A DNA stretch of 64,000 nucleotides from Candidatus Woesearchaeota archaeon. Its GTDB lineage: Archaea; Nanobdellota; Nanobdellia; Woesearchaeales; GW2011-AR9. The first letter of the stretch is position 1; every line of letters begins with the position of its first letter. Shown here piece by piece: positions 13,550 to 30,748 of this stretch. The position numbers and the translations under genes are program-made. The notes beneath the pieces were generated by a model. It searched no databases. It was not told the origin of the DNA and saw nothing but the letters and a program-made list of their open reading frames with translations. The stretch covers positions 7,331 to 71,330 of the forward strand of contig JABHRR010000040.1 in NCBI GenBank assembly GCA_018670095.1, written 5' to 3'.

Positions 13550-15142
13550 ATGGAAGCTGTAGATTATTTTTTAAAAAATTGGACTGGAAACAAAAAGATA
13601 GGAGATGTTATGTTAGATGAACTGCTATCTCTTGATGGGGTGCCATTATGGTGGTTTTTTGAAAGAATTTTTGTTTACCATATTTTGCCAAGACAAATTA
13701 ATACGTTTGAAGAAATTGAAAAAAGAGAAAAATTGAGCCCATTCAAGAAAATTAAGCTGAAAGCAAGCGCACAGATAATTAAAAAAATGATTATCAGTAA
13801 TGAAAATAAAAAGTTAAAATACTTTGGAAATAAAAAATTTAAAAGTCCTGATCATAAACCAACTGGTGATCAAAACAAAGTTCTTTTTCTCAGCTACACT
13901 AACCATATTCTTCCAAATGGCGATTTATTTAGAATCCAAAAAATCATTAATGAAGTTAAAGAAAAACATTTCTTAGAGCCTTTTGTCCTTTTTGCTGATA
14001 CGTTGTCTTCTAGAAATTATAAAAAATTAAATGATAAAAATACTATTTACCAATATTCTGATAATGATATAAATAAAAAAGCAAAAACTTTTTCTAATGA
14101 CATGTATGAGAAATGGAAAAGTATTTCCGATAGCAAAAAAGAAGAATTATTGACCAAAGGCGATTTATCTTATTGGCCATATTTGAAGCATGCATTTGAA
14201 GTATTTTATTCCAAAGAGTTCTTAGAGTTATTATATATTTATTACGAAAGTGCAAAAAAAACAATAATCTCAGAAAAAATTAAAGTAGTAGTCTTAACTT
14301 CACAAAATGGCATCTTTGATAAGTGTATCATTGCTGCTGCTCAAGAATTAAATGTACCTGTATTAAGGCTTCAACATGGAATTGGAGAATGTTTAATTCC
14401 TTATCATCCTTTTGACAAATATTATAAATTAATTTTTAGTGAAGAAGTTAAAAGAAATTTAATGAATGTGGGTTGGCCTGAAGAACAATTAATCATTACC
14501 GGCCCAATAATATTTGATGAGATTAACAATTATATTCTTCCAAAAAAAAATAAAGAGAAGAATATTTTTATTGCTACTGCGCCCCTTATTACAGAAAGTG
14601 GAGGGGGAAAAAAGTATTATCAAAAAATAGAGAGTATTATGAAAGATATTAAAAAGATAAAAAATGTAAAAGTAATCCTCAAGGTCCATCCCGCGGAGCA
14701 CCCCATAGAGAAAACGATTAAGAAATATCGAAACTGTGCCAGAAAAGTTGACCTAAGGGTAAAAATTTATGGGACTGATATATCAAGAAAAGAATTTTAT
14801 CAATTATTTCAATGGTGTGATGTCTTCGTAAACTTTGGTTCCACCACTGCACTTGAAGCGATGATTATTGGGAGACCGGCAGTAACAATAAAAGCGATAG
14901 ATTTCCCAGCAATGTATAATTGGATGGAAGAAAATAAGATTGCGCCAGTTATTGAATATAGAAATAATAAAGAAGAGCATGAAGAACTAGTCTCTGCGAT
15001 TAAAAAATCGTTAGAAGGAAATTCAGAGTTTGTTGAGAATATTAAAGAATTTATTAAGAAAAAGTGTGGAATCATTGAGGGTAATGCATATAAAAAAACT
15101 TCCGTGATCATAAAACAATTCTACAAAGAACAAGAAAAATAA
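13550..15142 (+). CDS. GT-B-like transferase with HP motif (TagF/KpsS/sialyltransferase-like; CDP-alcohol or CMP-sugar dependent), putative
   Basis: KVHPAEHP motif followed by DVFVNFGSTTALEAMIIGRPAV, which resembles TagF/Capsule_synth/bacterial sialyltransferase families. Paralogous to the N-terminal half of the 24656..26788 protein. Confidence 0.35.
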   Translation: MEAVDYFLKNWTGNKKIGDVMLDELLSLDGVPLWWFFERIFVYHILPRQINTFEEIEKREKLSPFKKIKLKASAQIIKKMIISNENKKLKYFGNKKFKSPDHKPTGDQNKVLFLSYTNHILPNGDLFRIQKIINEVKEKHFLEPFVLFADTLSSRNYKKLNDKNTIYQYSDNDINKKAKTFSNDMYEKWKSISDSKKEELLTKGDLSYWPYLKHAFEVFYSKEFLELLYIYYESAKKTIISEKIKVVVLTSQNGIFDKCIIAAAQELNVPVLRLQHGIGECLIPYHPFDKYYKLIFSEEVKRNLMNVGWPEEQLIITGPIIFDEINNYILPKKNKEKNIFIATAPLITESGGGKKYYQKIESIMKDIKKIKNVKVILKVHPAEHPIEKTIKKYRNCARKVDLRVKIYGTDISRKEFYQLFQWCDVFVNFGSTTALEAMIIGRPAVTIKAIDFPAMYNWMEENKIAPVIEYRNNKEEHEELVSAIKKSLEGNSEFVENIKEFIKKKCGIIEGNAYKKTSVIIKQFYKEQEK

Positions 15143-15170: not shown

Positions 15171-16358
15171 TTATAAAGAAATGTTAGAGATTATTTTTTT
15201 AGCTTTCTCATAATATGAACTAACTAAATTTTTATTTTTATGATTAAATGAAAAATCAACATCTAATTTACCCCCAATAAAATCAATATAAATCAGTGCT
15301 GCCGAAACTTGTTTTACTGGTTCTAGAAAATTTTCAACCTCAATATCAAATGAAATAGGTATATTATTATCAAGATTGTTAATAAACTTTCCAACATCAA
15401 GAATTTCTTTACCGGATAATCCCTCTAACAACCCCAACCCTTCTTCAAGAATTTGCCCATCATCATTCTTCTCTTTTCTTTCTGGTTTCCAGATTTGACC
15501 ATAATCTACAAGTTGTACATCAAATACCCTTCCACCCATAAAAATAAATTCTTTAATTAAATCACACATGCTAGGTTGTATGCTAAAGTTACCAGGATAC
15601 AATGGTCCATAACCAAATTTGGTGAATTGATTATTCATTATATAATTATCTTCATGATCATCTAATAATTTATTAATACTGTCTCTCGCTAAACCATAAT
15701 GTGCAGTATCAAAACATAAACCAACATTAGGTGTGTCTCTGAAAAAATTTGCGAATAATAAAAAGAATTCTTTAGTAACAAAAGAAGGTTCATAAATAAT
15801 CTCTTTAGGATTAGTGGTAACATTACCTTTCAAAGGGACAGGCATATTCTCCACACCAATTTTAATTTCTGTTTGGTTCGCTAATAGCTTGATATTTTCA
15901 AATGCTGGAAAAATGATTTCTTCTTTTATTTTATCAAAGTTATTATCTTTATAAGGCCAAACCAACATTTCTGGAGAGTTATCTACAGAAGATTGGTAAT
16001 AATTTGTTCCAAAATGAACAGTAATTGATTTTGCTTTAATCTCTTCTGCCAATTTAATTGTTTGTTTAAAAAAAACAATAGATTCCGGCAAACTGAAATT
16101 AAGATAACGATTAGGACAATGTGAAGAAAAAGGAGCGTGTAAAGTTAATATAAAATCGGAGGGTACATAGGCCAAAATATTTTTTTTTACTTGATTAAAA
16201 AGAGAATTATAATTTGGGAAAACATCCCCAAAATAAATTAAAAGACCTTTTTGGTGTCCTAAGGGCACAATTTTATTAATTATCTTAATCTTTAATTTTA
16301 ATTGTTCTTCATCCAATGGATTGACTGGTAATTGTAAAACTGCCATATTATCAAACAT
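15171..16358 (-). CDS. xylose-isomerase-like TIM-barrel sugar(-phosphate) isomerase/epimerase family protein
   Basis: ITVHFG, IGVENMP and GLCFDTAHYGL motifs of the AP endonuclease 2/xylose isomerase-like TIM-barrel fold. Confidence 0.45.
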   Translation of the reverse strand: MFDNMAVLQLPVNPLDEEQLKLKIKIINKIVPLGHQKGLLIYFGDVFPNYNSLFNQVKKNILAYVPSDFILTLHAPFSSHCPNRYLNFSLPESIVFFKQTIKLAEEIKAKSITVHFGTNYYQSSVDNSPEMLVWPYKDNNFDKIKEEIIFPAFENIKLLANQTEIKIGVENMPVPLKGNVTTNPKEIIYEPSFVTKEFFLLFANFFRDTPNVGLCFDTAHYGLARDSINKLLDDHEDNYIMNNQFTKFGYGPLYPGNFSIQPSMCDLIKEFIFMGGRVFDVQLVDYGQIWKPERKEKNDDGQILEEGLGLLEGLSGKEILDVGKFINNLDNNIPISFDIEVENFLEPVKQVSAALIYIDFIGGKLDVDFSFNHKNKNLVSSYYEKAKKIISNISL

Positions 16359-16361
16359 AAT

Positions 16362-17396
16362 TTAATCTAAAGGTTCATTTAAGATAGAACCAAACATATT
16401 TCTAATACCATCTTTATCTAATAAAATTTTACTGTGTTTTGAAAAAAGTGTTTCTTGAGGGTCACTTTTAAAAAATCCTTTCTCATAAAATTTTTCATAA
16501 TAATTATCTGCTTGAGTAATAATTGGTAATCTGACAAATAAATTATCGTTCTCAAGAATAAACTCATTTTCTTCTTCAAAAAACAATTTTTCATGCATTC
16601 TTTCTCCGGTGGCTTTACCAATTATAGTGTGATGAGAAGCATCTTTATGGTTAAATTCTAAAAAAACTTCTGCCAAATCTTGCATTTTTACCGAGTTCAT
16701 TTTAAAAATAAAAGTTTCTCCTTCTTCAGCAAGTAAAGTAGCATAGAAAATTAGTTTTACACTCTCCGGAATAGTCATAAAAAAACGAGTCATTTCAGGG
16801 TCTGTAAGATGTATAGGTTCTTCATTTAATAATTGTTTTTTCCATATTTCTAAAACTGAACCACGAGAATCAAGTACATTACCAAAACGAACGGCACCAA
16901 ATTTAGTTTCTGATCTTCCTCTATGATATGCCATTGAAGAAATTAGCCTTTCAGCCAATAATTTAGTAGTCCCCATAACACTACAAGGGTTAACTGCTTT
17001 ATCAGTAGAAATAAGAATTACTTTATGGACATTATTAAACATAGCAGCTTCAATTACATTCTGGGTTCCTAAAACATTTGTTTTAATTGCTTCAAAAGGG
17101 TCATACTCAGATGAAAGAACATGTTTAAGAGCAGCGGCATGATATACAATGTCTACCCCTTGCATTGCCCTAATTAATCTTTCTTTCTCCCGTACATCAC
17201 CATGAAAAAAACGAATGTGATCATGATGGGATAATTTTTTTCTAGCATAGAAAAGTTCAGTTTCACGATTATCCAAAACCCTTATTTGGGCAGGATTAAG
17301 TTTTAAAAGCTCAGTAACAATCGCTTCTCCAATAGAGCCTAGTCCGCCAGTAATAAGGATTGTTTTTCCCTGAAAAAAATCATTGATGCTTTCCAT
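16362..17396 (-). CDS. PseB/CapD-like UDP-sugar 4,6-dehydratase (nonulosonic acid pathway step 1)
   Basis: ILITGGLGSIG Rossmann motif and the hallmark STDKAVNPCSVMGTTK. Confidence 0.75.
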   Translation of the reverse strand: MESINDFFQGKTILITGGLGSIGEAIVTELLKLNPAQIRVLDNRETELFYARKKLSHHDHIRFFHGDVREKERLIRAMQGVDIVYHAAALKHVLSSEYDPFEAIKTNVLGTQNVIEAAMFNNVHKVILISTDKAVNPCSVMGTTKLLAERLISSMAYHRGRSETKFGAVRFGNVLDSRGSVLEIWKKQLLNEEPIHLTDPEMTRFFMTIPESVKLIFYATLLAEEGETFIFKMNSVKMQDLAEVFLEFNHKDASHHTIIGKATGERMHEKLFFEEENEFILENDNLFVRLPIITQADNYYEKFYEKGFFKSDPQETLFSKHSKILLDKDGIRNMFGSILNEPLD

Positions 17397-17506: not shown

Positions 17507-19123
17507 TCACTCATCCCCTTTATTAAAAAACTCTTTAATGGAAGAGGAAATGTATCTTAAATCTTCCTCATTTAATGTCACTGACATAGGTAAAGTTAAT
17601 ACTCTTCCAGACAATTCTTCTGTTAGCGGCAGATCCCCTTCTTTAAAACCATAGTTTCTTTTGTACAAAGTTTTTAAGTGTACCGGATTAAAATAAACCT
17701 TGCTCATAATCCCTTTACTCTCCAAGAAAAATTGAAGTTGGTCCCTTACTTGTTTATTAGGTAAAGTTATAGTGTACATTTGATAAATATGATTAAAACC
17801 AACCAAAGGCAAAGGACACTTTACCCCAGGGGTCATAGACAATTCTCGATTTAAAAAAGTAGCTTTCTTTTTCCTCTCATTAATCATAAAGTTTATTTTT
17901 CTCAATTGAGAAAGCCCTAATGCGGCATTCATTGTTGGCATTCTAAAATTAAAACCAACTTTTAAATAATCACAATCTTTAATAGAAGAGAAATAATCCC
18001 CCTCCACTTCCTCTATTCTTCCTAAAGAACGTAACAATTTCATTCTTTCATATAATTTTGGATTCTCAGTAACAATAACTCCCCCCTCACCACAGGAAAT
18101 AATTTTATTCTGACAAAAACTAAACATAGCAGCAGTACCAAATGTCCCAACTTTTTTCCCATTAACATCTGCCCCTAAAGATTCAGCGGCATCGTCTAAT
18201 AATAAAAGATTATTATCATTACAAAGGCGTGCTAACTTCTCAATATCACGACAAGCACAACCACCATAATGGATAGGTATAACTGCTTTTGTTTTAGAGG
18301 TTATTTTTTTTCTAACATCTTCTGCATCTAATCCAAAAGTCTCTGATTCGCATTCTGCAAAAACTGGGATACCTCCCGCAAGAATAACTGCGTTAGCAGT
18401 AGCAATAAATGTAAACGAAGGAACAATCACTTCTTTCCCTTTTACATCACAAGCTAAAAGAAGCGTGTGTAATGCTGAAGTTCCAGAATTAAAAGTTAAA
18501 GCATATTTTGTCCCCACAAATTTAGCAAGTTCATATTCAAACTCTTGGATTTCTGGCCCTACAGCCCAATTAGTTCCTCTTTTAATAACCTTAGCTATTG
18601 CTTCAATATCATCTTTGTCGGAATATGTTTTAAAAAATGGCATTTTCCATTTTTTAGTTTCACTAATTGGGTCACTAGAACTTAGTATCTTGTCAACTTC
18701 ATATTCTTCACCCACTCGCCTCTCATCAAGACATTTAATTACTTTAGCCGGAATACCATAAGCAACAACATTATCAGGAAGATCTTTGTTAACGAAAGAA
18801 TGAGCCCCAATAGTTGTGTTCTCCCCTATTGTAACATTGGGCATGATAGTACAATGAGTGCCTACACAAGCATTTTTTTTAATAATTACTTTTCCTTTTT
18901 TATTATCGATAGTAGAAACTGAGTAAATGGAACAATGACTACCAATCTGAACATTATCACCAATTTCAACGTATTCTTTAGCATTGATATAAGTAAATGC
19001 ACCAATATCAACAGATTGTCCCAATGATAATTTATCAGGATGTTGAACTAACCAATTCCACTTTGTAAGTTTATTATGTTCAATTATTGGAGTCTCCCAA
19101 TTTTCAAAACGTTCTTTTTCCAT
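17507..19123 (-). CDS. fusion: left-handed beta-helix (hexapeptide) N-acetyltransferase + DegT/DnrJ/EryC1 PLP aminotransferase
   Basis: N-terminal hexapeptide repeats (IGDNVQIGSHCSIY, IGENTTIGAHSFV). C-terminal DegT fold with the PLP-lysine motif MFSFCQNKIISCGEGG. Confidence 0.75.
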   Translation of the reverse strand: MEKERFENWETPIIEHNKLTKWNWLVQHPDKLSLGQSVDIGAFTYINAKEYVEIGDNVQIGSHCSIYSVSTIDNKKGKVIIKKNACVGTHCTIMPNVTIGENTTIGAHSFVNKDLPDNVVAYGIPAKVIKCLDERRVGEEYEVDKILSSSDPISETKKWKMPFFKTYSDKDDIEAIAKVIKRGTNWAVGPEIQEFEYELAKFVGTKYALTFNSGTSALHTLLLACDVKGKEVIVPSFTFIATANAVILAGGIPVFAECESETFGLDAEDVRKKITSKTKAVIPIHYGGCACRDIEKLARLCNDNNLLLLDDAAESLGADVNGKKVGTFGTAAMFSFCQNKIISCGEGGVIVTENPKLYERMKLLRSLGRIEEVEGDYFSSIKDCDYLKVGFNFRMPTMNAALGLSQLRKINFMINERKKKATFLNRELSMTPGVKCPLPLVGFNHIYQMYTITLPNKQVRDQLQFFLESKGIMSKVYFNPVHLKTLYKRNYGFKEGDLPLTEELSGRVLTLPMSVTLNEEDLRYISSSIKEFFNKGDE

Positions 19124-19184: not shown

Positions 19185-19979
19185 TTAAATACTAGTCCAA
19201 CCACCATCAACCATAAATGTGGTGCCGGTTATATAAGAAGCTGCATTAGAAGCTAAAAAAACTGTAGCTGATGCAATTTCTTCTGGTTTTCCCATTCTAT
19301 TCAAAAGTGTTCTTTTTTCATAACTTGAAATAAACTTTTCTTCTTGATTATTGATGATTCCACCAGGACAAAGACAATTAACTCTAATTCCAAAACCCCC
19401 ATAATATGAAGCCAGATACTTTGAAAAGTTTATTATTCCGCCTTTTATCGCTGAATAAGCAGCGGGGAAAGTTAAATGATTATCTTTGTAAATATCAAAT
19501 GTTGGTGCCACCACCCCATAAATAGAACCAAAGTTGATGATTGAACCTTTTACATTATTATTTTTCATTAATTGTGCTACTTCTTTTGCCAAAAGACAAG
19601 CAGAATTAAGTTGTAAATCAATATTCCTCTGCCAAGAATCAATTTTAATGTCTTCAATTTCATTTAACCAATCAGCTGTTCTGGGGTAAGCAACATTAAC
19701 AAAAATATCAATTGGACCTTGTTCTTGATTAAGCCCAGTTAATATTTCTTTGTAATTAGATAAATTTGCAATATCAAATTTTTTATAAATTATTGAAAGC
19801 TTACTTTTCTGACATTCTTCTTGAAAAGATAAACCTAAATCATCACTAATATCTAAAATAATTACTTTAGCACCGGCTTGGGCAAGAGCAATAGAAATTT
19901 CCCTACCCAAAAGACCTAAACCACCACAAACTAAAGCCACTTTTTTTTCAAGTCGAAATTTATTAATATAATCTATCAT
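19185..19979 (-). CDS. short-chain dehydrogenase/reductase (PtmA-like)
   Basis: CGGLGLLG cofactor motif and YSAIK catalytic motif. Confidence 0.7.
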   Translation of the reverse strand: MIDYINKFRLEKKVALVCGGLGLLGREISIALAQAGAKVIILDISDDLGLSFQEECQKSKLSIIYKKFDIANLSNYKEILTGLNQEQGPIDIFVNVAYPRTADWLNEIEDIKIDSWQRNIDLQLNSACLLAKEVAQLMKNNNVKGSIINFGSIYGVVAPTFDIYKDNHLTFPAAYSAIKGGIINFSKYLASYYGGFGIRVNCLCPGGIINNQEEKFISSYEKRTLLNRMGKPEEIASATVFLASNAASYITGTTFMVDGGWTSI

Positions 19980-19990
19980 TTAAAATACCT

Positions 19991-22039
19991 TCAAGTTAAC
20001 CTTTTAAACCCGACATTTGCTACCGGTCCTTCCAAAAGTTGATGAACGTTATTGTTCGCTATTGATTTACTTATGATTGTAAATACTTTATCAACAGCAA
20101 TCAAATAATTATCCACTATATCCTCTGTGTGACAATAAGACACATAAACACTTTTAGTAGTTAAATATCCTAATTTAAGCATTTCTTGTGTAAACAAAGT
20201 ATGTAAAGCATGACTATCTTTATGCTGAATAATAAATGTGGTTAATGGTCTAATACCCACAACTTTGACATCAATATTATGCTTAGTTGCTAATTTTCCC
20301 CAACCTTCACTAATTCTATCACCTATCTTAATCAAATGCTCAAAAACATTATTTTCTGCCATCTTTTTAATTGTAGTTAAAGCTGCAACAAAACCAACAC
20401 GATCTGTCCAGTAAGTACTAGTTATAAAACTCTCTTGTGCAATGTCCATTATATTCTTTTTACCAATAATTGTAGCCATTGGAAACCCGTTACTTATCCC
20501 TTTAGCATAAACAACAATATCTGGTTCAAGCCCATATTTCTGGTAGGCACCTCCCAACATTATTCTCCAACCTGAAGTAATCTCATCAAGAATTAAAACT
20601 GCACCAGTTTCTCTAACAATTTTTTGAACACCCATTAAAAATTCAGGAGTAGGTTCTTTGTGACGGATAGTTTCTAATACAATTACACCAATATCATTTT
20701 CTGTGACAATTCTTTTTAAATGTAACAAATCATTATATTCGAATGGAATTGCTGTACCTTTCAATGAACGTGGAACCCCCAATGGTTTTAAACCCGGCAA
20801 CAAATGTCCATCAAGATTTTTATCATCAGCTAGATTAGCTGCAAGATACCAATCATGCCACCCATGATAACCACAAAAAGCAACTTTATCTTTTTTTGTA
20901 TAAGCACGAGCAATTCTAACTGCAACAGACATAGCTTCTCCACCAGTTTTTGCAAATTTAACATATCCTGCCCAAGGATGCATATTTAACAATAATTCAG
21001 CTAATTCAACTTCTTCAGGACAATTTAATGTGGTCATAGAACCATCATCAATGCATTTTTTAACTGCGTCATTTACATCATCATCAGCAAAACCTAAAAT
21101 ACATGTTCCAATACCCATATATGTCATATCAATAAATTTATTATCATCTAAATCCCAAACTTCCACGCCTTTTGCTTTTTTAAAATAAGCTGGCCATTGA
21201 TTTGGCAAAAACATCTCAGGACGTTTAGAAAGTAACTGACAACCACCAGGGATCATAGATTTAGCTTTCTCCCAAAGTTTAATCCCCTTATCAATTTTGT
21301 TTGTTTGATAATATTTTGATTTCATTAAAGCTTCAATCACAACCATATCCATTTCCTCATCAATCTCAAACTGCTGATATCTTTTTACGGGATAACCCAT
21401 AGTTAATTGGTGGTAAAATGTTTTTTTTTGTTTAAATGCTTCTACTTCAGAAATATAAACTGTTCCCTCTGGGAAATATACTTCTCCTAAATCCTGCCTT
21501 CTTTTAGCATGAGAACTATCCCCCCCTAATTCAATTCCTAATCCTGCACCCAGAGGTTTTATCAAACCGTCAGCATGAAAAGTCATAGTAAATTCCGGAT
21601 GCGAAGACTCTGGTTGAGCAACGCCAACAATAGATTCTGCTTTCTCATTTGAATCTAACATTTCAAGGGCACAATCAATATCTTCTGCTTTTCTCAGAGG
21701 AGAAGTAGGATCAAGTTGAATAATATAATCATAATGTTCACCTGATTTTTCACAGAAATCAAGGGCATGTAGCAAAACATCAGCAGAAGTTGCAGTATCA
21801 GTGGCCAAATAAGAAGGCCTCATAAAAGGAACATCACCACCGCAGTTCTTTGCGACCAGTGCTATTTCTTCATCATCAGTTGAGAGAATAACTCTGTCAA
21901 CATACATTGATTTCTGACCTGCTTCTATACTCCAAGCAACCATAGGTTTACCCGCAATAATTTTTATATTTTTCCTTGGAAAACCTTTACTTCCACCACG
22001 TGCAGGAATTACGCCCAAAACTTTTTTGTTGTTTATCAT
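19991..22039 (-). CDS. fusion: CMP-nonulosonic acid synthetase (NeuA/PseF-like cytidylyltransferase) + class-III (glutamate-1-semialdehyde aminomutase-like) aminotransferase
   Basis: N-terminal IPARGGSKGFPRKN. C-terminal KFAKTGGEAMSVAVRIARAYT and the PLP-lysine region DIVVYAKGISNGFP. Confidence 0.75.
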   Translation of the reverse strand: MINNKKVLGVIPARGGSKGFPRKNIKIIAGKPMVAWSIEAGQKSMYVDRVILSTDDEEIALVAKNCGGDVPFMRPSYLATDTATSADVLLHALDFCEKSGEHYDYIIQLDPTSPLRKAEDIDCALEMLDSNEKAESIVGVAQPESSHPEFTMTFHADGLIKPLGAGLGIELGGDSSHAKRRQDLGEVYFPEGTVYISEVEAFKQKKTFYHQLTMGYPVKRYQQFEIDEEMDMVVIEALMKSKYYQTNKIDKGIKLWEKAKSMIPGGCQLLSKRPEMFLPNQWPAYFKKAKGVEVWDLDDNKFIDMTYMGIGTCILGFADDDVNDAVKKCIDDGSMTTLNCPEEVELAELLLNMHPWAGYVKFAKTGGEAMSVAVRIARAYTKKDKVAFCGYHGWHDWYLAANLADDKNLDGHLLPGLKPLGVPRSLKGTAIPFEYNDLLHLKRIVTENDIGVIVLETIRHKEPTPEFLMGVQKIVRETGAVLILDEITSGWRIMLGGAYQKYGLEPDIVVYAKGISNGFPMATIIGKKNIMDIAQESFITSTYWTDRVGFVAALTTIKKMAENNVFEHLIKIGDRISEGWGKLATKHNIDVKVVGIRPLTTFIIQHKDSHALHTLFTQEMLKLGYLTTKSVYVSYCHTEDIVDNYLIAVDKVFTIISKSIANNNVHQLLEGPVANVGFKRLT

Positions 22040-22213: not shown

Positions 22214-23257
22214 ATGACATACAAAACATGTATAATTGGATGCGGAAATATTGCGAGTATATGGAGCAATTTATTCTCTAAATGGCCAGTTACTCATATG
22301 GCGGCTTACCAAAAACATTCTAAAACAGAAGTGGTAGGAGTTTGTGATATTGATATTAACAAAGCTAAAGAATGTGCATTAAAATGGAATGTTAAAAAAT
22401 TTTATTCTAACATGGATGAAATGTTATCACAGCTAAAACCAGACATTGTTAGTGTTTGTACGCCTTGTGAAAACCATTATGACACTGTTAAAAAAATTCT
22501 TCAATTTCCCATCAAAGCAATATTATGTGAAAAACCAATAGCAGATAACCTAAACAAAGCAAAAGAAATGATTAAATTATGTAAAGAGAAAAATGTACCA
22601 TTAATTATCAATCATCCAAGAAGATATGATGAATTACATAATTATGTGAAAAACAACCTTTCTCATTTGGTTGGAAATCCAAAAAAAATTTCTTTTTTCT
22701 ATTCCGGAGAGATAATCAATCATGGTTCACATCTGTTTGATTTATTAAAAAATTATTTTGGAGAAATAAAATGGGTTCAAGCAGATAGTGAAGGAGATGG
22801 TTTAAATATATTGTTAAAGTTCAAATCAGGATTAGTTGGATCTGTGCTTAGTTTTGATTTTGATGACATTTCAATTTTTGACTTAAGCATAATTGGTGAC
22901 AAAGCAAGAATAGATTTGATCAACAAACCTTTTTGGGATTATGATTACAGATATTTTAAGAAAGAAAAAGATTTAATAATGGATAAAGCAAATATTTTTT
23001 CTAAAAACCATAGTGAAGATATTGATAAAAAATTTGATAGAGAATTTTTTGTAAAAGCAGTTGATGATACTATCCGAAGTATAGAAAGTGGAGAAAAACC
23101 AATCTCTCCTGGAGAAGAAGCTTTGGCGGCTTTAGAAGTGATGATGGCCGCAATATATTCTTCTCAAAATGAAGGAAAAAGAATAAATCTTCCGTTTGAA
23201 ATAGATATGATTTTACCTAAAGCTAAAGGAGAATTAAAAAAATGGCAGAAAGATTAG
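22214..23257 (+). CDS. Gfo/Idh/MocA-family NAD(P)-dependent sugar oxidoreductase (WbpB-like)
   Basis: IIGCGNIA dinucleotide-binding motif and the EKP motif (ILCEKPIA). Confidence 0.7.
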   Translation: MTYKTCIIGCGNIASIWSNLFSKWPVTHMAAYQKHSKTEVVGVCDIDINKAKECALKWNVKKFYSNMDEMLSQLKPDIVSVCTPCENHYDTVKKILQFPIKAILCEKPIADNLNKAKEMIKLCKEKNVPLIINHPRRYDELHNYVKNNLSHLVGNPKKISFFYSGEIINHGSHLFDLLKNYFGEIKWVQADSEGDGLNILLKFKSGLVGSVLSFDFDDISIFDLSIIGDKARIDLINKPFWDYDYRYFKKEKDLIMDKANIFSKNHSEDIDKKFDREFFVKAVDDTIRSIESGEKPISPGEEALAALEVMMAAIYSSQNEGKRINLPFEIDMILPKAKGELKKWQKD

Positions 23258-24615
23258 CAATATTAGGGGGTCAACCCATTAGGACCATACCTTTTTTAAA
23301 CAGAAAAACAATGGGAACAAACGAAATCGAAGCAGCTACAAGAGTTATTAACTCAGAAATTCTTTCTGGATTTTTAGCTGCCCCAGGGAGTTTTTTTAAT
23401 GGAGGAAAAGAAGTTAAAGCGTTTGAAAAATCTTGGGCAGAAAAATACGGTTTTAAACATGCAATTAGTGTTAATTCATGGACCTCAGGATTGATGGTGG
23501 CAGTTGGAGCAGTAGGTATTAAACCAGGAGATGAAGTAATTTGTTCGCCCTATTCAATGTCAGCTTCGGCTACTGCTGCTTTATTTTATGGAGGCATTCC
23601 TGTATTTGCAGACCTTGATCCAGAAACATTTTGTCTTGATCCAAAATCTATTGAAGAAAAGATAACATCAAAAACAAAAGCGATTATTGTGGTTCATTTA
23701 TTTGGAGGTCCTGCAGATATGGATTCCATTATGAAAATTGCTAAACCAAGAGGAATTAAAGTAATTGAAGATTGTGCACAAGCCCCAGGAGTATTCTATA
23801 AGAATAAAGCAATTGGAGCGATAGGTGATATTGGAGGGTTTAGTTTTAATTTTCACAAACATATCCATTGTGGAGAAGGTGGTCTTTTGGTAACAAATGA
23901 TGACGAATTAGCTTTTAGAGCACAATTAATTAGAAATCACGGAGAAAATTGTTTTGATTTGTCTAAATTATCTGATTTAGGAAACGTAATTGGAGGAAAT
24001 TATAGATTAACTGAAATTCAAGCCGCAATTGCATTTGAACAATTGAAAAAGTTAGAAGATATATTAGAGCGAAGACAGACGTTAGCAAAATACCTAAATG
24101 AAAGATTGTCTAAAATTAATGGGATTAGTGTTAAAGAAGTAGAAGAGGGTAGTACCCATGCATATTATATGTATCCATTCAGATTTCATGAAGATATTTT
24201 TGGAATCTCAAGAAATCTTTTTTTACGTGCAGTAAGTGCTGAGCTGCCTAAACCTTCAAACTGGGAGACGACTCCATTAGCTGAAGGTTATGTGAAACCA
24301 TTATATCTTAACGATATTTATCAACAAAAAATAGCTATTGGAACCAAAGGATTTCCATTTAATGTAAATAAGGAAGTAAATTATGATTATTCTAAAGGCA
24401 TTTGTCCCGTTACTGAAAAACTATATTACCAAGAAATGTTATATTCCCCTTTAGTAAGAGAACCACTATCCATTGAAGATATGAAAGATTTTGTTGATGC
24501 AATTGAAAAAGTAATCAACAATATAGATCAATTAAAAAACAGTGATCTCAATAATGGAACAGATGAGATTCATGATGCTGTGAAAGCTGTTGAAGATGTA
24601 GGAACAACAAAATAA
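23242..24615 (+). CDS. DegT/DnrJ/EryC1-family aminotransferase (WbpE-like)
   Basis: GGFSFNFHKHIHCGEGG PLP-lysine motif; 16-nt overlap with the upstream oxidoreductase gene. Confidence 0.75.
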   Translation: MAERLAILGGQPIRTIPFLNRKTMGTNEIEAATRVINSEILSGFLAAPGSFFNGGKEVKAFEKSWAEKYGFKHAISVNSWTSGLMVAVGAVGIKPGDEVICSPYSMSASATAALFYGGIPVFADLDPETFCLDPKSIEEKITSKTKAIIVVHLFGGPADMDSIMKIAKPRGIKVIEDCAQAPGVFYKNKAIGAIGDIGGFSFNFHKHIHCGEGGLLVTNDDELAFRAQLIRNHGENCFDLSKLSDLGNVIGGNYRLTEIQAAIAFEQLKKLEDILERRQTLAKYLNERLSKINGISVKEVEEGSTHAYYMYPFRFHEDIFGISRNLFLRAVSAELPKPSNWETTPLAEGYVKPLYLNDIYQQKIAIGTKGFPFNVNKEVNYDYSKGICPVTEKLYYQEMLYSPLVREPLSIEDMKDFVDAIEKVINNIDQLKNSDLNNGTDEIHDAVKAVEDVGTTK

Positions 24616-24655: not shown

Positions 24656-26788
24656 ATGAAAAAAATATTATTTACTGCCCAAGACCCCTCTAGTGGGAAT
24701 ATTGTTTCTGTCCTAGTTAAGAAAATTAAAAATACTGAATTAAAAATACTTGGTTCAAAAGAAAGTAAGAAAATATTCATAAAAGAAAAGATTAGTTTCT
24801 TAGATGTTGATCAAGAGGATAAAATATTTAACTTTGAACAGATTGTTGAAGAATTTCGACCAGACTTAATTGTTACTGGTGCTAGCGTTGGAGATACCAT
24901 TGACAGAAAAGCAATCTTATTAGCACGTGAAAAAAAAGTACCTTCCGTTTCGATTTTAGATTTTTGGGTGAATTATGTTGAGAGATATAGTAACTTGGAC
25001 AATGGAGATAAATTAGTATTCTTACCAGATTATGTGTTTATCCCAGACAAATTAGCTAAAGAAGACATGATAAAATTAGGTTTCCCTGAAGAAAAGTTGG
25101 TAATTACTGGAAATCCCTATTTTGATACTTTTACACAATCAACAAAGAAGGGGGATTATATTTTATATATATCTCAAACAAAACCAACATTAGAAAAAGA
25201 TAACGTTGAATTTAATTTCGAACCTCGAGTATTAGATGATTTATTAGAATTTTTAAGTAAAGGTCAAAAATTAGTAATAAGACTTCATCCTAAAGATAAT
25301 ATAAAAGATTTTGAGAATTACCTAAAAAATAAAAACAGAGAAGACATAATCTTAGATCAAGATAGTAATCTAGATGAACTTATCGATGAGAGTAAAATAA
25401 TAATAGGTATCTCTTCAATTGTTTTATTACAAGCTGCGTTGAAAAAAAAAATTGTTATAAGTTATATCCCAAACATAGATCAATCAAAAGATAATTTTAT
25501 TTGTAAAAGATTAAACATCTGTTATAGTGCTTATGAAAAAGAAGAATTTTTAAGATTGCTTGAAGAAGCAACTAGTGGAAAATTAAAGCCTATCTCTTTT
25601 GAAAATAAACTTAATAAACAAACAACAGAAAGAGTTCTAGAAGAATTTAACAAAATTATAAATCATCAAGGGAGTATAAATAACCATGGAAATAACGACA
25701 ATAAGAGCGAGGGTGGTGGTGATGATAAAGACAATTTGTTTCAGATAGAAAAATTTACAGAAATAAATAGGGAAGAATGGGACCAGTTTTGTTTACAATC
25801 AAACGATGCTTGGTTTTGGCACACTACTACTTATATGGATTATTCATTATGTTATATACCTAAAGCCAATCCAGTTAATAAATCTTTTTTAATTAGGAAT
25901 GGGAAAGAAATTTTAGCAATATTTACTTTAATAAAACAAACAATTGATGGAAACAATATCCTAAAACATGGATATAACCCCAATCCAAATCCTTGCTTCA
26001 GAAATAATGATGGTTCTAGTTTTAAAAAAAAACTAATGAAAATTGGAATGGAAGAAATAGATAAAATCGCTAAAGAAGAAAATTGTAAAGAATGTCAAAT
26101 AGAAATAACCCCTTTAAGTAAAAATAGGATGTTTGACTTAAAATATAATTACTTGATGGATTTTGATTTTTTAAATTATGATACGGTCACTTTAATTGTT
26201 GACATATTTCCAGATATAGAGAAAGTAAAAAGTAATATTAGAAAAACTTATCGTCACATTTTCAACAATTATAAAAACAAAATAATTTGTAATGTGTATG
26301 ATGAAAAGAATATTACTTGGGAGATATATTTGAGATACAAAGAATTACATCACAAAGATGCAGGATATCAAACCAGGCCAGACGAAAACTTTAAAGTGAT
26401 GTATAAAGCAATTAAAGAAGGAAATGGATTTCTAGTAGAAATTACTAAATTAAATGAAGAACATTTAGGATATGGATTATTTAATCTTTACAAAAACAGT
26501 GCATTATATAGTTCTGCTTGTACTGACCCTTCTTGTAAATTACCTGTTGGCCATTTAGTTCAATGGGGAGCTTTGCAGTATTTAAGTAAGATTGGTGCAT
26601 CACATTATGATACCAGTAATCAGTTTCCTAGCAAGCAATTATTACAAGATTTTGATGAAAAAAGAAAAGCAATTTCATTTTTCAAGAGGGGATTTGGGGG
26701 AGAGTTACACCAAGTTTTCCGAGGAAGAAAGTTTTATGATTCTGAATATCTGAAGAACGAAATTATGAAACAGATTGATAACGAGTAA
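24656..26788 (+). CDS. two-domain protein: N-terminal HP-motif GT-B transferase-like domain + C-terminal FemAB/GNAT-like (aminoacyl/acyl-transferase) domain, putative
   Basis: N-terminus has RLHPKDN ... IIIGISSIVLLQAALKKKIV, paralogous to the 13550 protein. The C-terminal about 340 aa (EWDQFCLQSNDAWFWHT...) resembles the FemAB-family Acetyltransf_6 fold. Confidence 0.35.
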   Translation: MKKILFTAQDPSSGNIVSVLVKKIKNTELKILGSKESKKIFIKEKISFLDVDQEDKIFNFEQIVEEFRPDLIVTGASVGDTIDRKAILLAREKKVPSVSILDFWVNYVERYSNLDNGDKLVFLPDYVFIPDKLAKEDMIKLGFPEEKLVITGNPYFDTFTQSTKKGDYILYISQTKPTLEKDNVEFNFEPRVLDDLLEFLSKGQKLVIRLHPKDNIKDFENYLKNKNREDIILDQDSNLDELIDESKIIIGISSIVLLQAALKKKIVISYIPNIDQSKDNFICKRLNICYSAYEKEEFLRLLEEATSGKLKPISFENKLNKQTTERVLEEFNKIINHQGSINNHGNNDNKSEGGGDDKDNLFQIEKFTEINREEWDQFCLQSNDAWFWHTTTYMDYSLCYIPKANPVNKSFLIRNGKEILAIFTLIKQTIDGNNILKHGYNPNPNPCFRNNDGSSFKKKLMKIGMEEIDKIAKEENCKECQIEITPLSKNRMFDLKYNYLMDFDFLNYDTVTLIVDIFPDIEKVKSNIRKTYRHIFNNYKNKIICNVYDEKNITWEIYLRYKELHHKDAGYQTRPDENFKVMYKAIKEGNGFLVEITKLNEEHLGYGLFNLYKNSALYSSACTDPSCKLPVGHLVQWGALQYLSKIGASHYDTSNQFPSKQLLQDFDEKRKAISFFKRGFGGELHQVFRGRKFYDSEYLKNEIMKQIDNE

Positions 26789-30211: not shown

Positions 30212-30748
30212 ATGACCTTAGTACAAAAAATAACAAAGATAAAAATCTTAAATAAAGTATTAGGAAATCTCTATTTGGGGTTAAGATTATTTTATCAAGA
30301 AATGAAATGCCAAGAATTTAGGAAAAAATATGATCTCCATCCAACTTTTAGATTTAATGGACCAAATACCATCTTTTATGGTGATGGAAATATAGAAGGA
30401 GGTAAAAGTTCCCATATAGGAAGATCGAGTGCAATCTATGTTTCTAAGGGAAATAAAGTGACTATTGGAGAGAATTGTTCTATAAGTCATTATGTTACTA
30501 TGTATACTGAAAGTAAAAAAACAAACCAAGACTTTTCAATAAAACCGCATCAGCAAGAGTCTGGAGATATTATGATTGGAAACCATTCTTGGATTGGGGT
30601 TGGAGTGTTTATAAAACATGGAGTTAAAATCGGAAAGAATTGTATTATTGGAGCAAATAGTGTTGTTACAAAAGACATTCCTGATTATTCTATAGCTGTA
30701 GGCGCTCCAGCAAGAGTAGTAAAAGAAATAAGCACAATAAAACAATAA
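30212..30748 (+). CDS. hexapeptide-repeat sugar acetyltransferase (NeuD/maltose O-acetyltransferase-like)
   Basis: GNHSWIGVGVFIKHGVKIGKNCIIGANSVV beta-helix repeats. Confidence 0.65.
   Translation: MTLVQKITKIKILNKVLGNLYLGLRLFYQEMKCQEFRKKYDLHPTFRFNGPNTIFYGDGNIEGGKSSHIGRSSAIYVSKGNKVTIGENCSISHYVTMYTESKKTNQDFSIKPHQQESGDIMIGNHSWIGVGVFIKHGVKIGKNCIIGANSVVTKDIPDYSIAVGAPARVVKEISTIKQ

What the first reader, a model, noticed from the sequence alone, without database searches (positions are those of the whole stretch)
19991..22039. CMP-nonulosonate synthetase fused to a class-III (HemL-like) aminotransferase
A NeuA/PseF-type cytidylyltransferase domain (IPARGGSKGFPRKN) is fused to a glutamate-1-semialdehyde-aminomutase-like PLP domain. 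I know of no described NeuA-aminotransferase fusion in the canonical pathways. The fusion suggests an extra amino modification of the nonulosonate, or of its CMP-activated form, which would give a non-canonical sialic-acid-like sugar. A PtmA-like SDR (19185..19979) and a PanE-like reductase (28004..28981) nearby also point to additional tailoring.
Basis: partly seen in the sequence, partly recalled or inferred. Interest (0 to 1): 0.6.

Follow-up and report, generated by a model that had tools for sequence, protein, structure and literature searches.

The report
Sugar-activating enzyme fused to aminotransferase
One archaeal gene joins the enzyme that activates a sialic-acid-like surface sugar to an aminotransferase; the same pair, with a partner dehydrogenase, recurs next to or fused with each other in hundreds of bacteria and archaea, and nobody has shown what it makes.

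Summary
Window 19991..22039 (-) is one 682-aa ORF. It carries a complete NeuA/LegF/PseF-type cytidylyltransferase (residues ~1-243) and a complete class-III, GSA-aminomutase-like PLP domain (~250-682). It is not HemL and not an assembly artefact. The protein is identical to an NCBI Candidatus Woesearchaeota entry, and five further clusters at 63-71% identity share the architecture.

The fusion is not rare. At least 45 of the best 150 representative clusters (50% identity) are CTP_transf_3::aminotransferase fusions. In 80 genomes from many phyla the two genes were fused or adjacent in 53. An oxidoreductase (AKR, GFO/IDH/MocA or SDR) lay within 3 kb in 59. AKR::AT, GFO::AT, AKR::CTP, CTP::GNAT::AT and GFO::CTP::AT fusions also exist. 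The three enzymes therefore form one module inside pseudaminic- and legionaminic-acid clusters. Papers on Aeromonas and Legionella list the gene pair, but I found no functional study.

Best reading, inferred only: the adjacent SDR and the PLP domain turn a hydroxyl of the nonulosonate into an amine, and the fused domain CMP-activates the product. Aeromonas hydrophila AH-1 carries the minimal module, and its 403-Da pseudaminic-like glycan has an odd number of nitrogens. The carbon modified is unknown.

The parts
19991..22039 (-). Fusion gene, 682 aa: CMP-nonulosonate synthetase domain joined to a class-III aminotransferase domain
21305..22039 (-). N-terminal domain (residues 1-245): CTP_transf_3, 'type B' PseF/NeuA-like cytidylyltransferase. 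Motifs: PARGGSKGFPRKN, LDPTSPLR, RRQDL, EIDEEMD
   Evidence: Pfam 83.8 bits. Aligns over residues 6-242 to solved CMP-Neu5Ac synthetase 6ifd (126 bits) and to 1eyr. It is the only CTP_transf_3 in the 64-kb window.
19994..21304 (-). C-terminal domain (residues 246-682): class-III PLP enzyme of the GSA-aminomutase-like clade. Schiff-base lysine K513 and D485/E486 are conserved.
   Evidence: The window protein shares all >100 invariant columns of alignment A2. It is 64-71% identical to stand-alone 436-440 aa proteins.
19185..19979 (-). SDR oxidoreductase (PRK09186/PtmA-like), 11 nt downstream of the fusion; proposed redox partner of the aminotransferase
   Evidence: The same CTP-AT-SDR order occurs in L003, L006, L087, L089, L061, L063. 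SDR goes with type-B cytidylyltransferase, Fisher p=1e-5.
17507..19123 (-). Hexapeptide acetyltransferase fused to a DegT-family (PseC/LegC/PglE-like) aminotransferase; core pathway steps
16362..17396 (-). UDP-GlcNAc 4,6-dehydratase of the Polysacc_synt_2 (PseB/PglF/FnlA-like) type; first core step
15171..16358 (-). 395-aa protein with weak similarity to the xylose-isomerase-like TIM barrel (AP_endonuc_2); last gene of the operon, function unknown. Relatives recur in these clusters.
   Evidence: 25 bits, below cut-off. Recurs in L001, L003, L006, L088 and sits where PseG sits in L016, L036, L051, L060, L079.
29014..30105 (-). NeuB-family nonulosonate synthase (condensation with PEP)
   Evidence: PF03102 252.8 bits; NeuB_NnaB 325 bits, below cut-off
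28004..28981 (-). PanE/ApbA-type 2-oxo-acid reductase; conserved beside the module in L006; role unassigned
13550..15142 (+). 530-aa BFO_1060-family / 'surface carbohydrate biosynthesis' GT-B-like protein; candidate transferase using the CMP-sugar
   Evidence: weak hits, below cut-offs; a syntenic 522-aa Epimerase_2-like gene occurs in L006
30212..30748 (+). Second hexapeptide (NeuD/WbbJ-like) acetyltransferase, divergent from NeuB; possible acylase of an extra amine (speculative)

Best explanation
The gene encodes a bifunctional enzyme of a legionaminic-acid-type nonulosonate (NulO) pathway in a Woesearchaeota archaeon. The core sugar comes from the same island: dehydratase 16362-17396, acetyltransferase::aminotransferase 17507-19123, and NeuB 29014-30105. 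The N-terminal domain uses CTP to make the CMP-NulO. The C-terminal PLP domain works with the SDR encoded 11 nt downstream. The SDR oxidises a secondary alcohol of the nonulosonate to a ketone. The most likely site is C8, next to the terminal methyl; C4 is the alternative. The PLP domain then transfers an amino group from an amino acid, probably glutamate, to give a tri-amino nonulosonate. The attached cytidylyltransferase is the version specialised for that modified sugar. The order could instead be activation first, then oxidation and amination on the CMP-sugar. Shown here: domain identities, the genuineness of the fusion, and the tight genetic coupling of cytidylyltransferase, aminotransferase and oxidoreductase across bacteria and archaea. 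Inferred only: substrate, position, direction and order of the reactions.
For: (1) Both domains are complete and conserved. (2) The closest stand-alone homologue (71% identity, L087) lies in CTP(239 aa)-AT(437 aa)-SDR-NeuB::Epimerase_2-Hexapep-DegT-dehydratase, with the CTP and AT genes overlapping by 4 nt. Loss of the stop codon therefore explains the fusion. (3) In 80 genomes carrying an AT orthologue (49-64% identity), a cytidylyltransferase is fused or within 100 bp in 53 and within 3 kb in 62. An oxidoreductase is within 3 kb in 59, and NeuB within 6 kb in 55. (4) Fusions link all three partners: 45 CTP::AT, 3 AKR::AT, 2 GFO::AT, 1 GFO::CTP::AT and 1 GNAT::AT among the best 150 representatives; AKR::CTP in L019 and L043; CTP::GNAT::AT in P0016. 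Fusion of a dehydrogenase or reductase directly to the aminotransferase argues that they act on the same carbon. (5) The module is an add-on. In L017 PseB, PseC, PseG and PseI score above the NCBIfam cut-offs (PseH only weakly), and the oxidoreductase, cytidylyltransferase and AT sit among them. L021 also keeps a true PseF (277 bits), and L028 a PseF-type gene by my own profile. (6) Two different cytidylyltransferase subfamilies have each fused to the same AT, so the fusion arose at least twice. (7) The oxidoreductase family tracks the sugar series: AKR/GFO with Pse-type clusters, SDR with Leg-type clusters (44/4 against 2/8, p=1e-5). The AT does not track it (tree). That pattern is expected if the redox step meets a stereocentre that differs between Pse and Leg (C8) while the AT sees a planar ketone. 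(8) The nearest solved relatives act on non-alpha amines: FumI aminopentol aminotransferase (an amine beside a terminal methyl) and GenB-type sugar C-6' aminotransferases. (9) A. hydrophila AH-1 has the minimal island pseB-pseC-AKR-pseF-classIII AT-pseG-pseI (subgroup IA; PMC7874193 and its Supplementary Table 1). Its flagellin carries a single 403-Da Pse-like sugar (PMC4691044). An odd nominal mass means an odd number of nitrogens, whereas Pse5Ac7Ac is 316 Da with two. (10) Precedents from my own knowledge. Kdo8N is made from free Kdo by the oxidase KdnB and then the aminotransferase KdnA, before CMP activation; KdnB's role is cited in PMC5125639. An 8-amino-3,5,7,8,9-pentadeoxy-nonulosonate occurs in the Tenacibaculum maritimum O-antigen.
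Against: No enzyme of this AT family has been characterised in the literature I could search (10 searches). Tri-amino nonulosonates have been reported very rarely, yet this module is very common. AKRs usually act as reductases, not alcohol oxidases. The 403-Da Aeromonas mass exceeds Pse5Ac7Ac by 87 Da, not the -1 Da expected for a plain OH-to-NH2 swap. Extra groups are therefore needed, and a glutamyl or seryl substituent fits the same formula (C16H25N3O9). About 14 of 80 AT orthologues lie without any cytidylyltransferase or NeuB, some in catabolic-looking clusters: NanA-like lyase + NanE + ROK in L085; lyase, aldolase and amidohydrolase in L027; glutamate dehydrogenase next door in L024. The family is thus not restricted to CMP-sugar biosynthesis. 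The AF2 model was too poor (pLDDT 64) to examine pockets or domain geometry.
Confidence: 0.35

Rival explanations
1. Same bifunctional enzyme and same module, but the PLP domain and the oxidoreductase act on an N-acyl side chain of the nonulosonate, not on its backbone. One example is interconversion of 2-oxoglutaryl, gamma-glutamyl and 2-hydroxyglutaryl amide substituents.
For: The Aeromonas AH-1 mass of 403.16 equals Pse + acetyl + glutamyl. C. botulinum makes Leg5Ac7NMeGlu at 417 Da, which is 403+14 (PMC2674064). AKR and PanE-type enzymes are typical 2-oxo-acid or carbonyl reductases, and PanE is syntenic in the window and L006. FemAB-like (aminoacyl-tRNA transferase family) genes recur in these clusters, including window 24656-26788 and L006, L081, L084, L073. 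The AT sequence does not track Pse versus Leg stereochemistry, as expected if it sees only a common side chain.
Against: The minimal Aeromonas IA island and the compact operon of L017 contain no ligase or extra acyltransferase to install such a side chain. The AT belongs to the GSA-aminomutase-like clade, whose solved members act on amines lacking an alpha-carboxylate. FemAB-like genes were labelled in only about 10 of the 80 genome loci.
Confidence: 0.2
2. The pair works in the opposite direction, or as an inversion device. The PLP domain removes a free amino group from the nonulosonate, or from its 6-deoxy-hexosamine precursor, giving a ketone. The AKR, GFO or SDR enzyme then reduces the ketone. 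The net result is a hydroxyl in place of an amine, or an epimer.
For: AKRs are normally NADPH-dependent carbonyl reductases. Aeromonas subgroup IA lacks PseH in the island, so a free 7-amine could exist. AT orthologues occur in catabolic-looking clusters beside a NanA-like lyase, amidohydrolases and a glutamate dehydrogenase, where deamination is the expected direction. The class-III fold also includes racemases and epimerases (one search lists a 6'-epimerase and a broad-specificity racemase).
Against: In L017 a PseH-like GNAT domain is fused to PseG (weak PseH match), and GNAT genes flank the module in many other clusters, so a free amine is probably not left over. It would be wasteful to install an amine with PseC/LegC and then remove it. 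The Aeromonas glycan has more nitrogen than Pse5Ac7Ac, not less.
Confidence: 0.12
3. The aminotransferase and SDR supply an amino-sugar precursor, for example a GlmS-independent route to a hexosamine phosphate like the PtmA/PtmF step of the Campylobacter legionaminic pathway. The fusion to the cytidylyltransferase then reflects only co-expression.
For: The SDR is PtmA-like. DPANN archaea have reduced metabolism (own knowledge). AT orthologues lie beside NanE/ROK hexosamine genes in L085.
Against: Pse-type clusters start from ubiquitous UDP-GlcNAc and still carry the module. Repeated independent fusions to the last enzyme of the pathway, including GFO::CTP::AT in one polypeptide, are hard to explain by co-expression alone.
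Confidence: 0.05
4. The C-terminal domain is a genuine HemL of tetrapyrrole synthesis, and the fusion is an assembly or frameshift artefact.
For: The best NCBIfam hits carry the name glutamate-1-semialdehyde 2,1-aminomutase.
Against: All of those hits are far below cut-off (hemL 203 against 527; PRK06209 263 against 486). The same architecture occurs in six independent clusters at 63-71% identity and in at least 45 representative clusters. Most orthologues examined lie in glycan clusters (55 of 80 with NeuB within 6 kb) and none in a tetrapyrrole context. A cultured isolate's closed plasmid carries a 677-aa fusion.
Confidence: 0.01

Closest known systems
CMP-nonulosonate synthetases NeuA / LegF / PseF (Pfam CTP_transf_3; solved examples 6ifd, 1eyr)
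   Same: The N domain aligns over its full length (residues 6-242) and keeps the P-loop PARGGSKGxPxKN, the PTSPLR motif and the C-terminal acidic motif. It is the only such gene in a locus that has NeuB.
   Different: It is below the PseF equivalog cut-off (150.6 against 205.7). It has Asp where CMP-Neu5Ac synthetases have the Gln of LQPTSP, and AT-linked relatives have Glu or Asp at that site. It carries a 437-aa PLP domain at its C terminus.
Glutamate-1-semialdehyde 2,1-aminomutase (HemL)
   Same: Same class-III fold and the closest named sequence models. PLP lysine and aspartate are conserved.
   Different: Scores are less than half of the hemL cut-offs. There is no tetrapyrrole context, and the orthologue group is tied to nonulosonate clusters.
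Aeromonas flagellin-glycosylation island group I (pseB-pseC-AKR-pseF-class III aminotransferase-pseG-pseI) and Legionella pneumophila Sg6/Sg12 LPS locus (Lp6_764/765)
   Same: The same cytidylyltransferase-aminotransferase pair with an aldo/keto reductase, embedded in a nonulosonate cluster (PMC7874193, PMC3694923).
   Different: There the genes are separate, the sugar is Pse-type and the reductase is an AKR. Here the two genes are fused, the cluster is Leg-type, the partner is an SDR and the host is a DPANN archaeon. I did not align the Aeromonas or Legionella proteins themselves with the window protein. Function is unassigned in both papers.
Kdo8N pathway of Shewanella (KdnB oxidase + KdnA aminotransferase, then CMP activation)
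   Same: Same logic: oxidise an alcohol of a free 2-keto-3-deoxy sugar acid, transaminate it, then activate with a CTP_transf_3 enzyme. KdnB's role is cited in PMC5125639; the rest is my own knowledge.
   Different: Different enzyme families (Fe-ADH oxidase; KdnA was not compared here). The sugar has eight carbons, and a primary alcohol or aldehyde is modified. This is a resemblance in mechanism only, not homology shown here.
Class-III aminotransferases acting on non-alpha amines: FumI aminopentol aminotransferase (6hbs) and GenB-type aminoglycoside C-6' aminotransferases (7lm0)
   Same: Nearest solved sequences (142 and 118 bits). Their substrates are polyol or sugar amines without an alpha-carboxylate.
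   Different: Scores of only 118-142 bits indicate distant homology. The pathways are unrelated and none is fused to a nucleotidyltransferase.
Other bifunctional nonulosonate enzymes (E. coli/GBS NeuA with a C-terminal esterase; H. pylori HP0326 PseF/PseG; NeuB::Epimerase_2 in L087)
   Same: CMP-synthetases and neighbouring pathway enzymes are often fused (L087; the others are my own knowledge).
   Different: The partner domain here is a PLP aminotransferase. I found no published description of that combination.

Membership tests
CMP-nonulosonate synthetase (CTP_transf_3: NeuA/LegF/PseF) | Pfam PF02348 match above the gathering score | tested here: met
   83.8 bits against 22.6, residues 9-141
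CMP-nonulosonate synthetase (CTP_transf_3: NeuA/LegF/PseF) | Full-length similarity to solved CMP-sialic acid synthetases, including the N-terminal CTP-binding loop and the C-terminal acidic motif | tested here: met
   6ifd 126 bits over query residues 6-242; 1eyr 87 bits over 5-240. PARGGSKGFPRKN, PTSPLR and EIDEEMD are aligned.
CMP-nonulosonate synthetase (CTP_transf_3: NeuA/LegF/PseF) | Equivalog-level assignment as PseF (TIGR03584) | tested here: not met
   150.6 bits against a cut-off of 205.7. The cluster is Leg-type rather than Pse-type.
CMP-nonulosonate synthetase (CTP_transf_3: NeuA/LegF/PseF) | Genomic association with a NeuB-family synthase and the 2,4-diamino-hexose genes | tested here: met
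   NeuB at 29014-30105, dehydratase and Hexapep::DegT in the same operon. It is the only CTP_transf_3 in the window.
CMP-nonulosonate synthetase (CTP_transf_3: NeuA/LegF/PseF) | CTP + nonulosonate -> CMP-nonulosonate + PPi activity | not testable with these tools
   Needs an enzyme assay.
HemL (glutamate-1-semialdehyde 2,1-aminomutase) | Score above the curated hemL family cut-offs | tested here: not met
   TIGR00713 203.3 against 527.3; PRK00062 206 against 398; PRK06209 263 against 486
HemL (glutamate-1-semialdehyde 2,1-aminomutase) | Tetrapyrrole-pathway context or orthology | tested here: not met
   None of the orthologue loci examined shows a tetrapyrrole context. Most lie in nonulosonate or glycan clusters, and a minority in sugar-catabolic-looking or unassigned ones.
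Class-III (fold type I) PLP aminotransferases, Pfam PF00202 | PF00202 match above the gathering score, with the Schiff-base lysine and the PLP-binding aspartate present | tested here: met
   132.2 bits against 30.5. K513 and D485 are invariant in the 66-sequence alignment A2.
Cytidylyltransferase-linked sugar aminotransferase orthologue group (uncharacterised; Aeromonas 'class III aminotransferase' I-2, Legionella Lp6_764) | High identity to the stand-alone ~437-aa proteins, plus synteny with a CTP_transf_3 gene and an oxidoreductase | tested here: met
   64-71% identity to stand-alone proteins. CTP fused or adjacent in 53/80 genomes and an oxidoreductase within 3 kb in 59/80. In the window the SDR is 11 nt downstream. 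The Aeromonas and Legionella proteins themselves were not aligned here.
Kdo8N-type oxidase/aminotransferase system (KdnB/KdnA) | Homology to KdnA and KdnB | not tested
Only the reaction logic is compared.

The most novel reading that the evidence does not exclude
A very widespread three-enzyme module (oxidoreductase + class-III aminotransferase + dedicated cytidylyltransferase) makes a family of tri-amino or otherwise extra-aminated pseudaminic and legionaminic acids. Glycobiology would have largely overlooked these sugars. The module is found from DPANN and Asgard archaea and methanogens to CPR bacteria, Aeromonas and Legionella. The amination may even happen on the CMP-activated sugar, and I know of no PLP aminotransferase reported to act on a CMP-sugar.
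Probability: 0.3. Interest if true: 0.75.

Novelty: new variant of a known kind. Interest (0 to 1): 0.55.

Why it matters
Pseudaminic and legionaminic acids decorate flagella, pili, S-layers, capsules and LPS. They affect motility, immune recognition and phage attachment. The module is highly conserved: 49-71% identity across domains of life. It occurs in more than 590 species in one genome scan and gives 2671 representative clusters at E<=1e-30. It is embedded in these pathways, yet no function was assigned to it in the literature I could search. Working it out would define a new tailoring step and probably a new class of surface sugars. It would explain unassigned glycan masses such as the 403-Da Aeromonas flagellin sugar. 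It would also improve annotation of thousands of genes now labelled 'glutamate-1-semialdehyde aminomutase' or 'aminotransferase class III-fold'. The fusions give a direct experimental handle, because one polypeptide couples amination and activation.

Tried and rejected
(1) HemL or assembly artefact: rejected. All hits are below cut-off, the context is a glycan island, and the architecture recurs in many independent assemblies and in a closed plasmid.

(2) Ten literature searches found no functional study of the aminotransferase. Terms included glutamate-1-semialdehyde, aminomutase and class III aminotransferase combined with nonulosonic, pseudaminic, legionaminic, Tenacibaculum, triamino, CMP-Pse5Ac7Ac and Kdo8N. 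Only the Aeromonas and Legionella gene lists came up. One query returned irrelevant papers. The primary Kdo8N paper (PMC3610993) is not held.

(3) AlphaFold2 model of the whole fusion from a 66-sequence alignment: mean pLDDT 64, pTM 0.52, with the N domain and the junction below 50. It was too poor for pocket or domain-orientation analysis, so I ran no fold search.

(4) I wanted to test whether Tenacibaculum maritimum, which makes an 8-amino nonulosonate, carries the module. I judged another protein-database search unlikely to list that species, so I did not run it.

(5) The idea that the partner cytidylyltransferase is always the canonical PseF: rejected. There are two subfamilies. Type A is SpsF/COG1861-like by recollection, with an IQARMGSTRLPGKV motif. 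Type B is PseF/NeuA-like. Type A can coexist with a true PseF.

(6) The 530-aa gene at 13550-15142 as the missing hydrolysing 2-epimerase (LegG/NeuC): not supported. NeuC scores 18.7 bits against 235.9, and the gene looks more like a BFO_1060-type transferase.

(7) Plasmid tblastn gave only two close hits, but both are in cultured hosts.
Full report
OBSERVATION. Window 19991..22039 (minus strand) is one uninterrupted 682-aa ORF. Pfam finds CTP_transf_3 (residues 9-141, 83.8 bits) and Aminotran_3 (284-591, 132.2 bits). NCBIfam places a PseF-like cytidylyltransferase over residues 9-238 (150.6 bits, below the 205.7 cut-off). It places GSA-aminomutase-like models over 246-681, all far below their cut-offs: PRK06209 263 against 486, hemL 203 against 527. 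Against solved structures, the N domain aligns over its whole length to CMP-Neu5Ac synthetases (6ifd, 126 bits, residues 6-242; 1eyr). The C domain is nearest to FumI aminopentol aminotransferase (6hbs, 142 bits), to GSA aminomutases (about 133 bits) and to GenB-type sugar C-6' aminotransferases (118 bits). The PLP lysine (K513) and more than 100 other columns that are invariant in a 66-sequence alignment are present in the window protein.

NOT AN ARTEFACT, NOT HemL. The identical protein is an NCBI entry from a Candidatus Woesearchaeota MAG. Five other clusters of 673-684 aa at 63-71% identity, from separate assemblies, have the same architecture. The closest stand-alone relative (P0007, 71% identity, locus L087) has separate CTP_transf_3 (239 aa) and aminotransferase (437 aa) genes that overlap by 4 nt. 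The alignment shows the window protein is exactly those two proteins joined end to end through a linker of about 5-12 residues. Loss of a stop codon in an overlapping gene pair is enough to explain it. None of the orthologue loci I examined shows a tetrapyrrole context. Most lie in glycan clusters, and a minority lie in sugar-catabolic-looking or unassigned surroundings.

LOCAL CONTEXT. The fusion heads a tight five-gene minus-strand operon:
- fusion gene;
- 11 nt gap, then SDR 19185-19979 (PRK09186/PtmA-like);
- 61 nt gap, then hexapeptide acetyltransferase::DegT aminotransferase 17507-19123;
- 110 nt gap, then PseB/PglF-like 4,6-dehydratase 16362-17396;
- 3 nt gap, then a 395-aa protein with weak similarity to the xylose-isomerase-like TIM barrel, 15171-16358.

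NeuB (29014-30105), PanE (28004-28981), a second acetyltransferase (30212-30748), a FemAB-like protein (24656-26788), a GFO/IDH/MocA + DegT pair (22214-24615), a BFO_1060-like transferase (13550-15142), glycosyltransferases and a flippase lie around it. The fused domain is the only CTP_transf_3 in the whole 64-kb window. It must therefore be the CMP-activating enzyme of this island.

COMPARATIVE EVIDENCE. The best 80 loci (49-64% identity) span Asgard, DPANN and methanogenic archaea, CPR bacteria, Campylobacterota, Chlorobium, Bacteroidota, Planctomycetota, Proteobacteria, Paenibacillus and others. I called ORFs and built small iterative profiles in a script. The results for the 80 loci:
- a cytidylyltransferase is fused to the aminotransferase in 10, and fused or within 100 bp on the same strand in 53;
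- it is within 3 kb in 62 and absent within 10 kb in 14;
- an oxidoreductase lies within 3 kb in 59 (nearest type: AKR 33, GFO/IDH/MocA 17, SDR 9);
- NeuB lies within 6 kb in 55.

Two module flavours emerge. The first is the Pse-type operon PseB-PseC-[AKR or GFO]-cytidylyltransferase 'type A'-aminotransferase-PseG(-PseH)-PseI. PseB, PseC, PseG and PseI score above their NCBIfam cut-offs in L017, and PseG does so in L081, L070 and L023. The second is the Leg-type cluster: cytidylyltransferase 'type B' (PseF/NeuA-like)-aminotransferase-SDR-NeuB-Epimerase_2-hexapeptide acetyltransferase-DegT-dehydratase (L087, L089, L061, L063). The window belongs to the second flavour. Type A pairs with AKR/GFO and type B with SDR (44/4 against 2/8, Fisher p=1e-5). 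Type B also goes with Epimerase_2 (9/13 against 1/56). These counts are not phylogenetically independent. Type A can coexist with a genuine PseF (L021, 277 bits), which shows the triad is an add-on module.

FUSIONS LINK ALL THREE PARTNERS. An exhaustive HMMER search of 1.84 billion 50%-identity representatives gave 2671 hits at E<=1e-30. I classified the best 150 with my own profiles and spot-checked ten with Pfam. They comprise 45 CTP::AT, 3 AKR::AT, 2 GFO::AT, one GFO::CTP::AT triple fusion (P0224, 1026 aa), one GNAT::AT, two Amidohydro_2::AT and one APH::AT. The ranking favours two-domain hits because the query had both domains. AKR::CTP fusions occur in L019 and L043, and CTP::GNAT::AT in P0016. 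A cultured isolate, Pseudosulfitobacter pseudonitzschiae SMR1, carries pseB-pseC-AKR-GNAT-hyp-[677-aa CTP::AT]-pseG-pseI on a closed plasmid. PGAP names the fusion only 'aminotransferase class III-fold'. Halorussus aquaticus has the unfused GFO-CTP-AT triad. The bacterial fusions use type A and the Woesearchaeota-type fusions use type B, so the fusion arose at least twice.

LITERATURE. The unfused arrangement is drawn in Aeromonas polar-flagellin glycosylation islands. [quoted passage not shown] That paper offers only a generic role in transfer or modification of functional groups (PMC7874193). Legionella pneumophila serogroup 6/12 LPS loci list the same adjacent pair: glutamate-1-semialdehyde aminomutase Lp6_764 next to acylneuraminate cytidylyltransferase Lp6_765, with an aryl-alcohol-dehydrogenase-like oxidoreductase nearby (PMC3694923). 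I did not align those proteins with the window protein. I found no biochemical study in ten searches.

One experimental hook exists. A. hydrophila AH-1 is in subgroup IA, whose island is just pseB-pseC-AKR-pseF-AT-pseG-pseI (Supplementary Table 1 of PMC7874193). Its flagellin carries a single 403-Da Pse-like sugar with an oxonium ion at m/z 404 (PMC4691044). An odd nominal mass requires an odd number of nitrogens, whereas Pse5Ac7Ac is 316 Da with two. The formula C16H25N3O9 (403.159) fits several structures: a tri-amino nonulosonate with two acetyls and a glyceroyl, Pse + acetyl + glutamyl, or Pse5Ac7Ac + seryl. C. botulinum Leg5Ac7NMeGlu is 417 Da (PMC2674064). The mass supports an extra nitrogen but does not say where it sits.

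MECHANISM. Shown: the domain identities and the coupling of the three enzymes. Inferred: a dehydrogenase fused or adjacent to an aminotransferase is the classic way to convert CH-OH to CH-NH2 through a ketone. Coupling to the cytidylyltransferase points to the nonulosonate, or its CMP form, as substrate. Kdo8N is made the same way from free Kdo before CMP activation (KdnB cited in PMC5125639; the rest is my own knowledge). I favour C8 for four reasons. The resulting methyl ketone is a typical substrate for this clade. The nearest solved relative, FumI, acts on an amine beside a terminal methyl (own knowledge of FumI's substrate). The oxidoreductase family tracks the Pse/Leg series, which differ at C8, while the aminotransferase tree mixes both contexts. 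An 8-amino nonulosonate is known from Tenacibaculum maritimum (own knowledge). C4 remains possible. AT-linked type-B cytidylyltransferases carry Glu or Asp where CMP-Neu5Ac synthetases have the Gln of LQPTSP. This could fit recognition of a cationic substrate, but the sample is too small to say.

COUNTER-EVIDENCE AND RIVALS. Twelve to fourteen of the 80 orthologues lack any cytidylyltransferase or NeuB nearby. Some of these sit in catabolic-looking clusters:
- L085: ABC transporter + NanA-like lyase + NanE + ROK kinase; its sister locus L078 has the transporter ORFs and the lyase;
- L027: lyase, HpcH aldolase, SDR, AKR and Amidohydro_2 (L034 shares the SDR-AKR-aminotransferase core);
- L024: two Amidohydro_2 genes, glutamate dehydrogenase, GFO and SDR.

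These loci are scattered through the tree. They suggest the enzyme handles free sugars or sugar acids with glutamate/2-oxoglutarate, and that it can run in the deaminating direction. AKRs are usually reductases. I therefore keep these rivals: action on an amino-acid-type N-acyl side chain (0.2), deamination followed by reduction or epimerisation (0.12), and precursor supply (0.05). The HemL/artefact reading is refuted (0.01).

VERDICT. I rate it a new variant of a known kind, namely a nonulosonate pathway with an uncharacterised amination module. Interest is moderate to high for glycobiology because of the module's breadth, its conservation and the availability of tractable hosts.

Noticed in passing
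window 7511..10306 (+): A 931-aa ORF fuses a pyruvate-kinase barrel domain (residues 2-316) to PUA-like, ATP-sulfurylase and APS-kinase domains, i.e. a PAPS synthase with an N-terminal PK barrel. It lies at the edge of the glycan island, which may point to sulfated glycans.
   Followed up: no
window 15171..16358 (-); also L001:14943-15719, L003:17102-17950, L006:20275-21300, L088:10060-10818: A xylose-isomerase-like TIM-barrel (AP_endonuc_2) protein recurs in these nonulosonate clusters. In L016, L036, L051, L060 and L079 it occupies the position between the aminotransferase/cytidylyltransferase and NeuB where PseG sits in other loci. The window and L001 lack any PseG or clear hydrolysing epimerase. 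It may be a non-orthologous replacement or another tailoring step.
   Followed up: partly
L085:7487-11305, L078:8922-11157, L027:5105-12427, L024:5238-15318: Close orthologues (about 49-56% identity) of the aminotransferase sit in catabolic-looking clusters. L085 has an ABC transporter, a NanA-like lyase, NanE and a ROK kinase. L027 has a DHDPS-family lyase, an HpcH aldolase, SDR, AKR, Amidohydro_2 and a URO-D-like gene. L024 has AP_endonuc_2, two Amidohydro_2 genes, glutamate dehydrogenase, GFO and SDR. This may be an unknown amino-sugar or nonulosonate degradation route.
   Followed up: partly
window residues 106-113 of the fusion (LDPTSPLR); L087, L089, L063, L061, L053, L058, L010, L064, L068, L003, L006: Type-B cytidylyltransferases linked to the aminotransferase have L-[E/D]-P-x-S-P, where CMP-Neu5Ac synthetases (1eyr, 6ifd) and one unlinked type-B gene (L042) have L-Q-P-T-S-P. 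This could be a specificity determinant. The sample is too small to judge.
   Followed up: partly
window 24656..26788 (+); L006:8536-9603; L081:9438-10574; L084, L073, L069, L080: FemAB-family (aminoacyl-tRNA-dependent transferase-like) genes recur beside these nonulosonate clusters. The window copy is an unusually long 710-aa protein whose FemAB-like part is residues 366-685. They could add amino-acid substituents to the sugar.
   Followed up: no
window 17507..19123 (-); L006:17518-19011; L087:12095-13945; L019 and L043: Sequential pathway enzymes are fused repeatedly in this gene neighbourhood: hexapeptide acetyltransferase::DegT (window), dehydratase::PglD-like (L006), NeuB::Epimerase_2 (L087), AKR::cytidylyltransferase (L019, L043), PseG::GNAT (L017, L041, L091).
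   Followed up: partly
window 12071..13510 (+); L006:1115-2413: A 479-aa protein combines an NTP_transf_5 (uncharacterised nucleotidyltransferase) region with a dTMP-kinase-like P-loop domain. A 432-aa protein with a faint thymidylate-kinase hit lies in the related locus L006. Function unknown.
   Followed up: no
window 22214..24615 (+): A GFO/IDH/MocA oxidoreductase plus a DegT aminotransferase with a 16-nt overlap lie divergent from the fusion. The same pair (DegT2-like, 370-576 bits) recurs in L040, L059, L069, L073 and L075. It looks like a separate UDP-sugar 3-oxidation/transamination module of the WbpB/WbpE type (own knowledge), not the partner of the fused aminotransferase.
   Followed up: no
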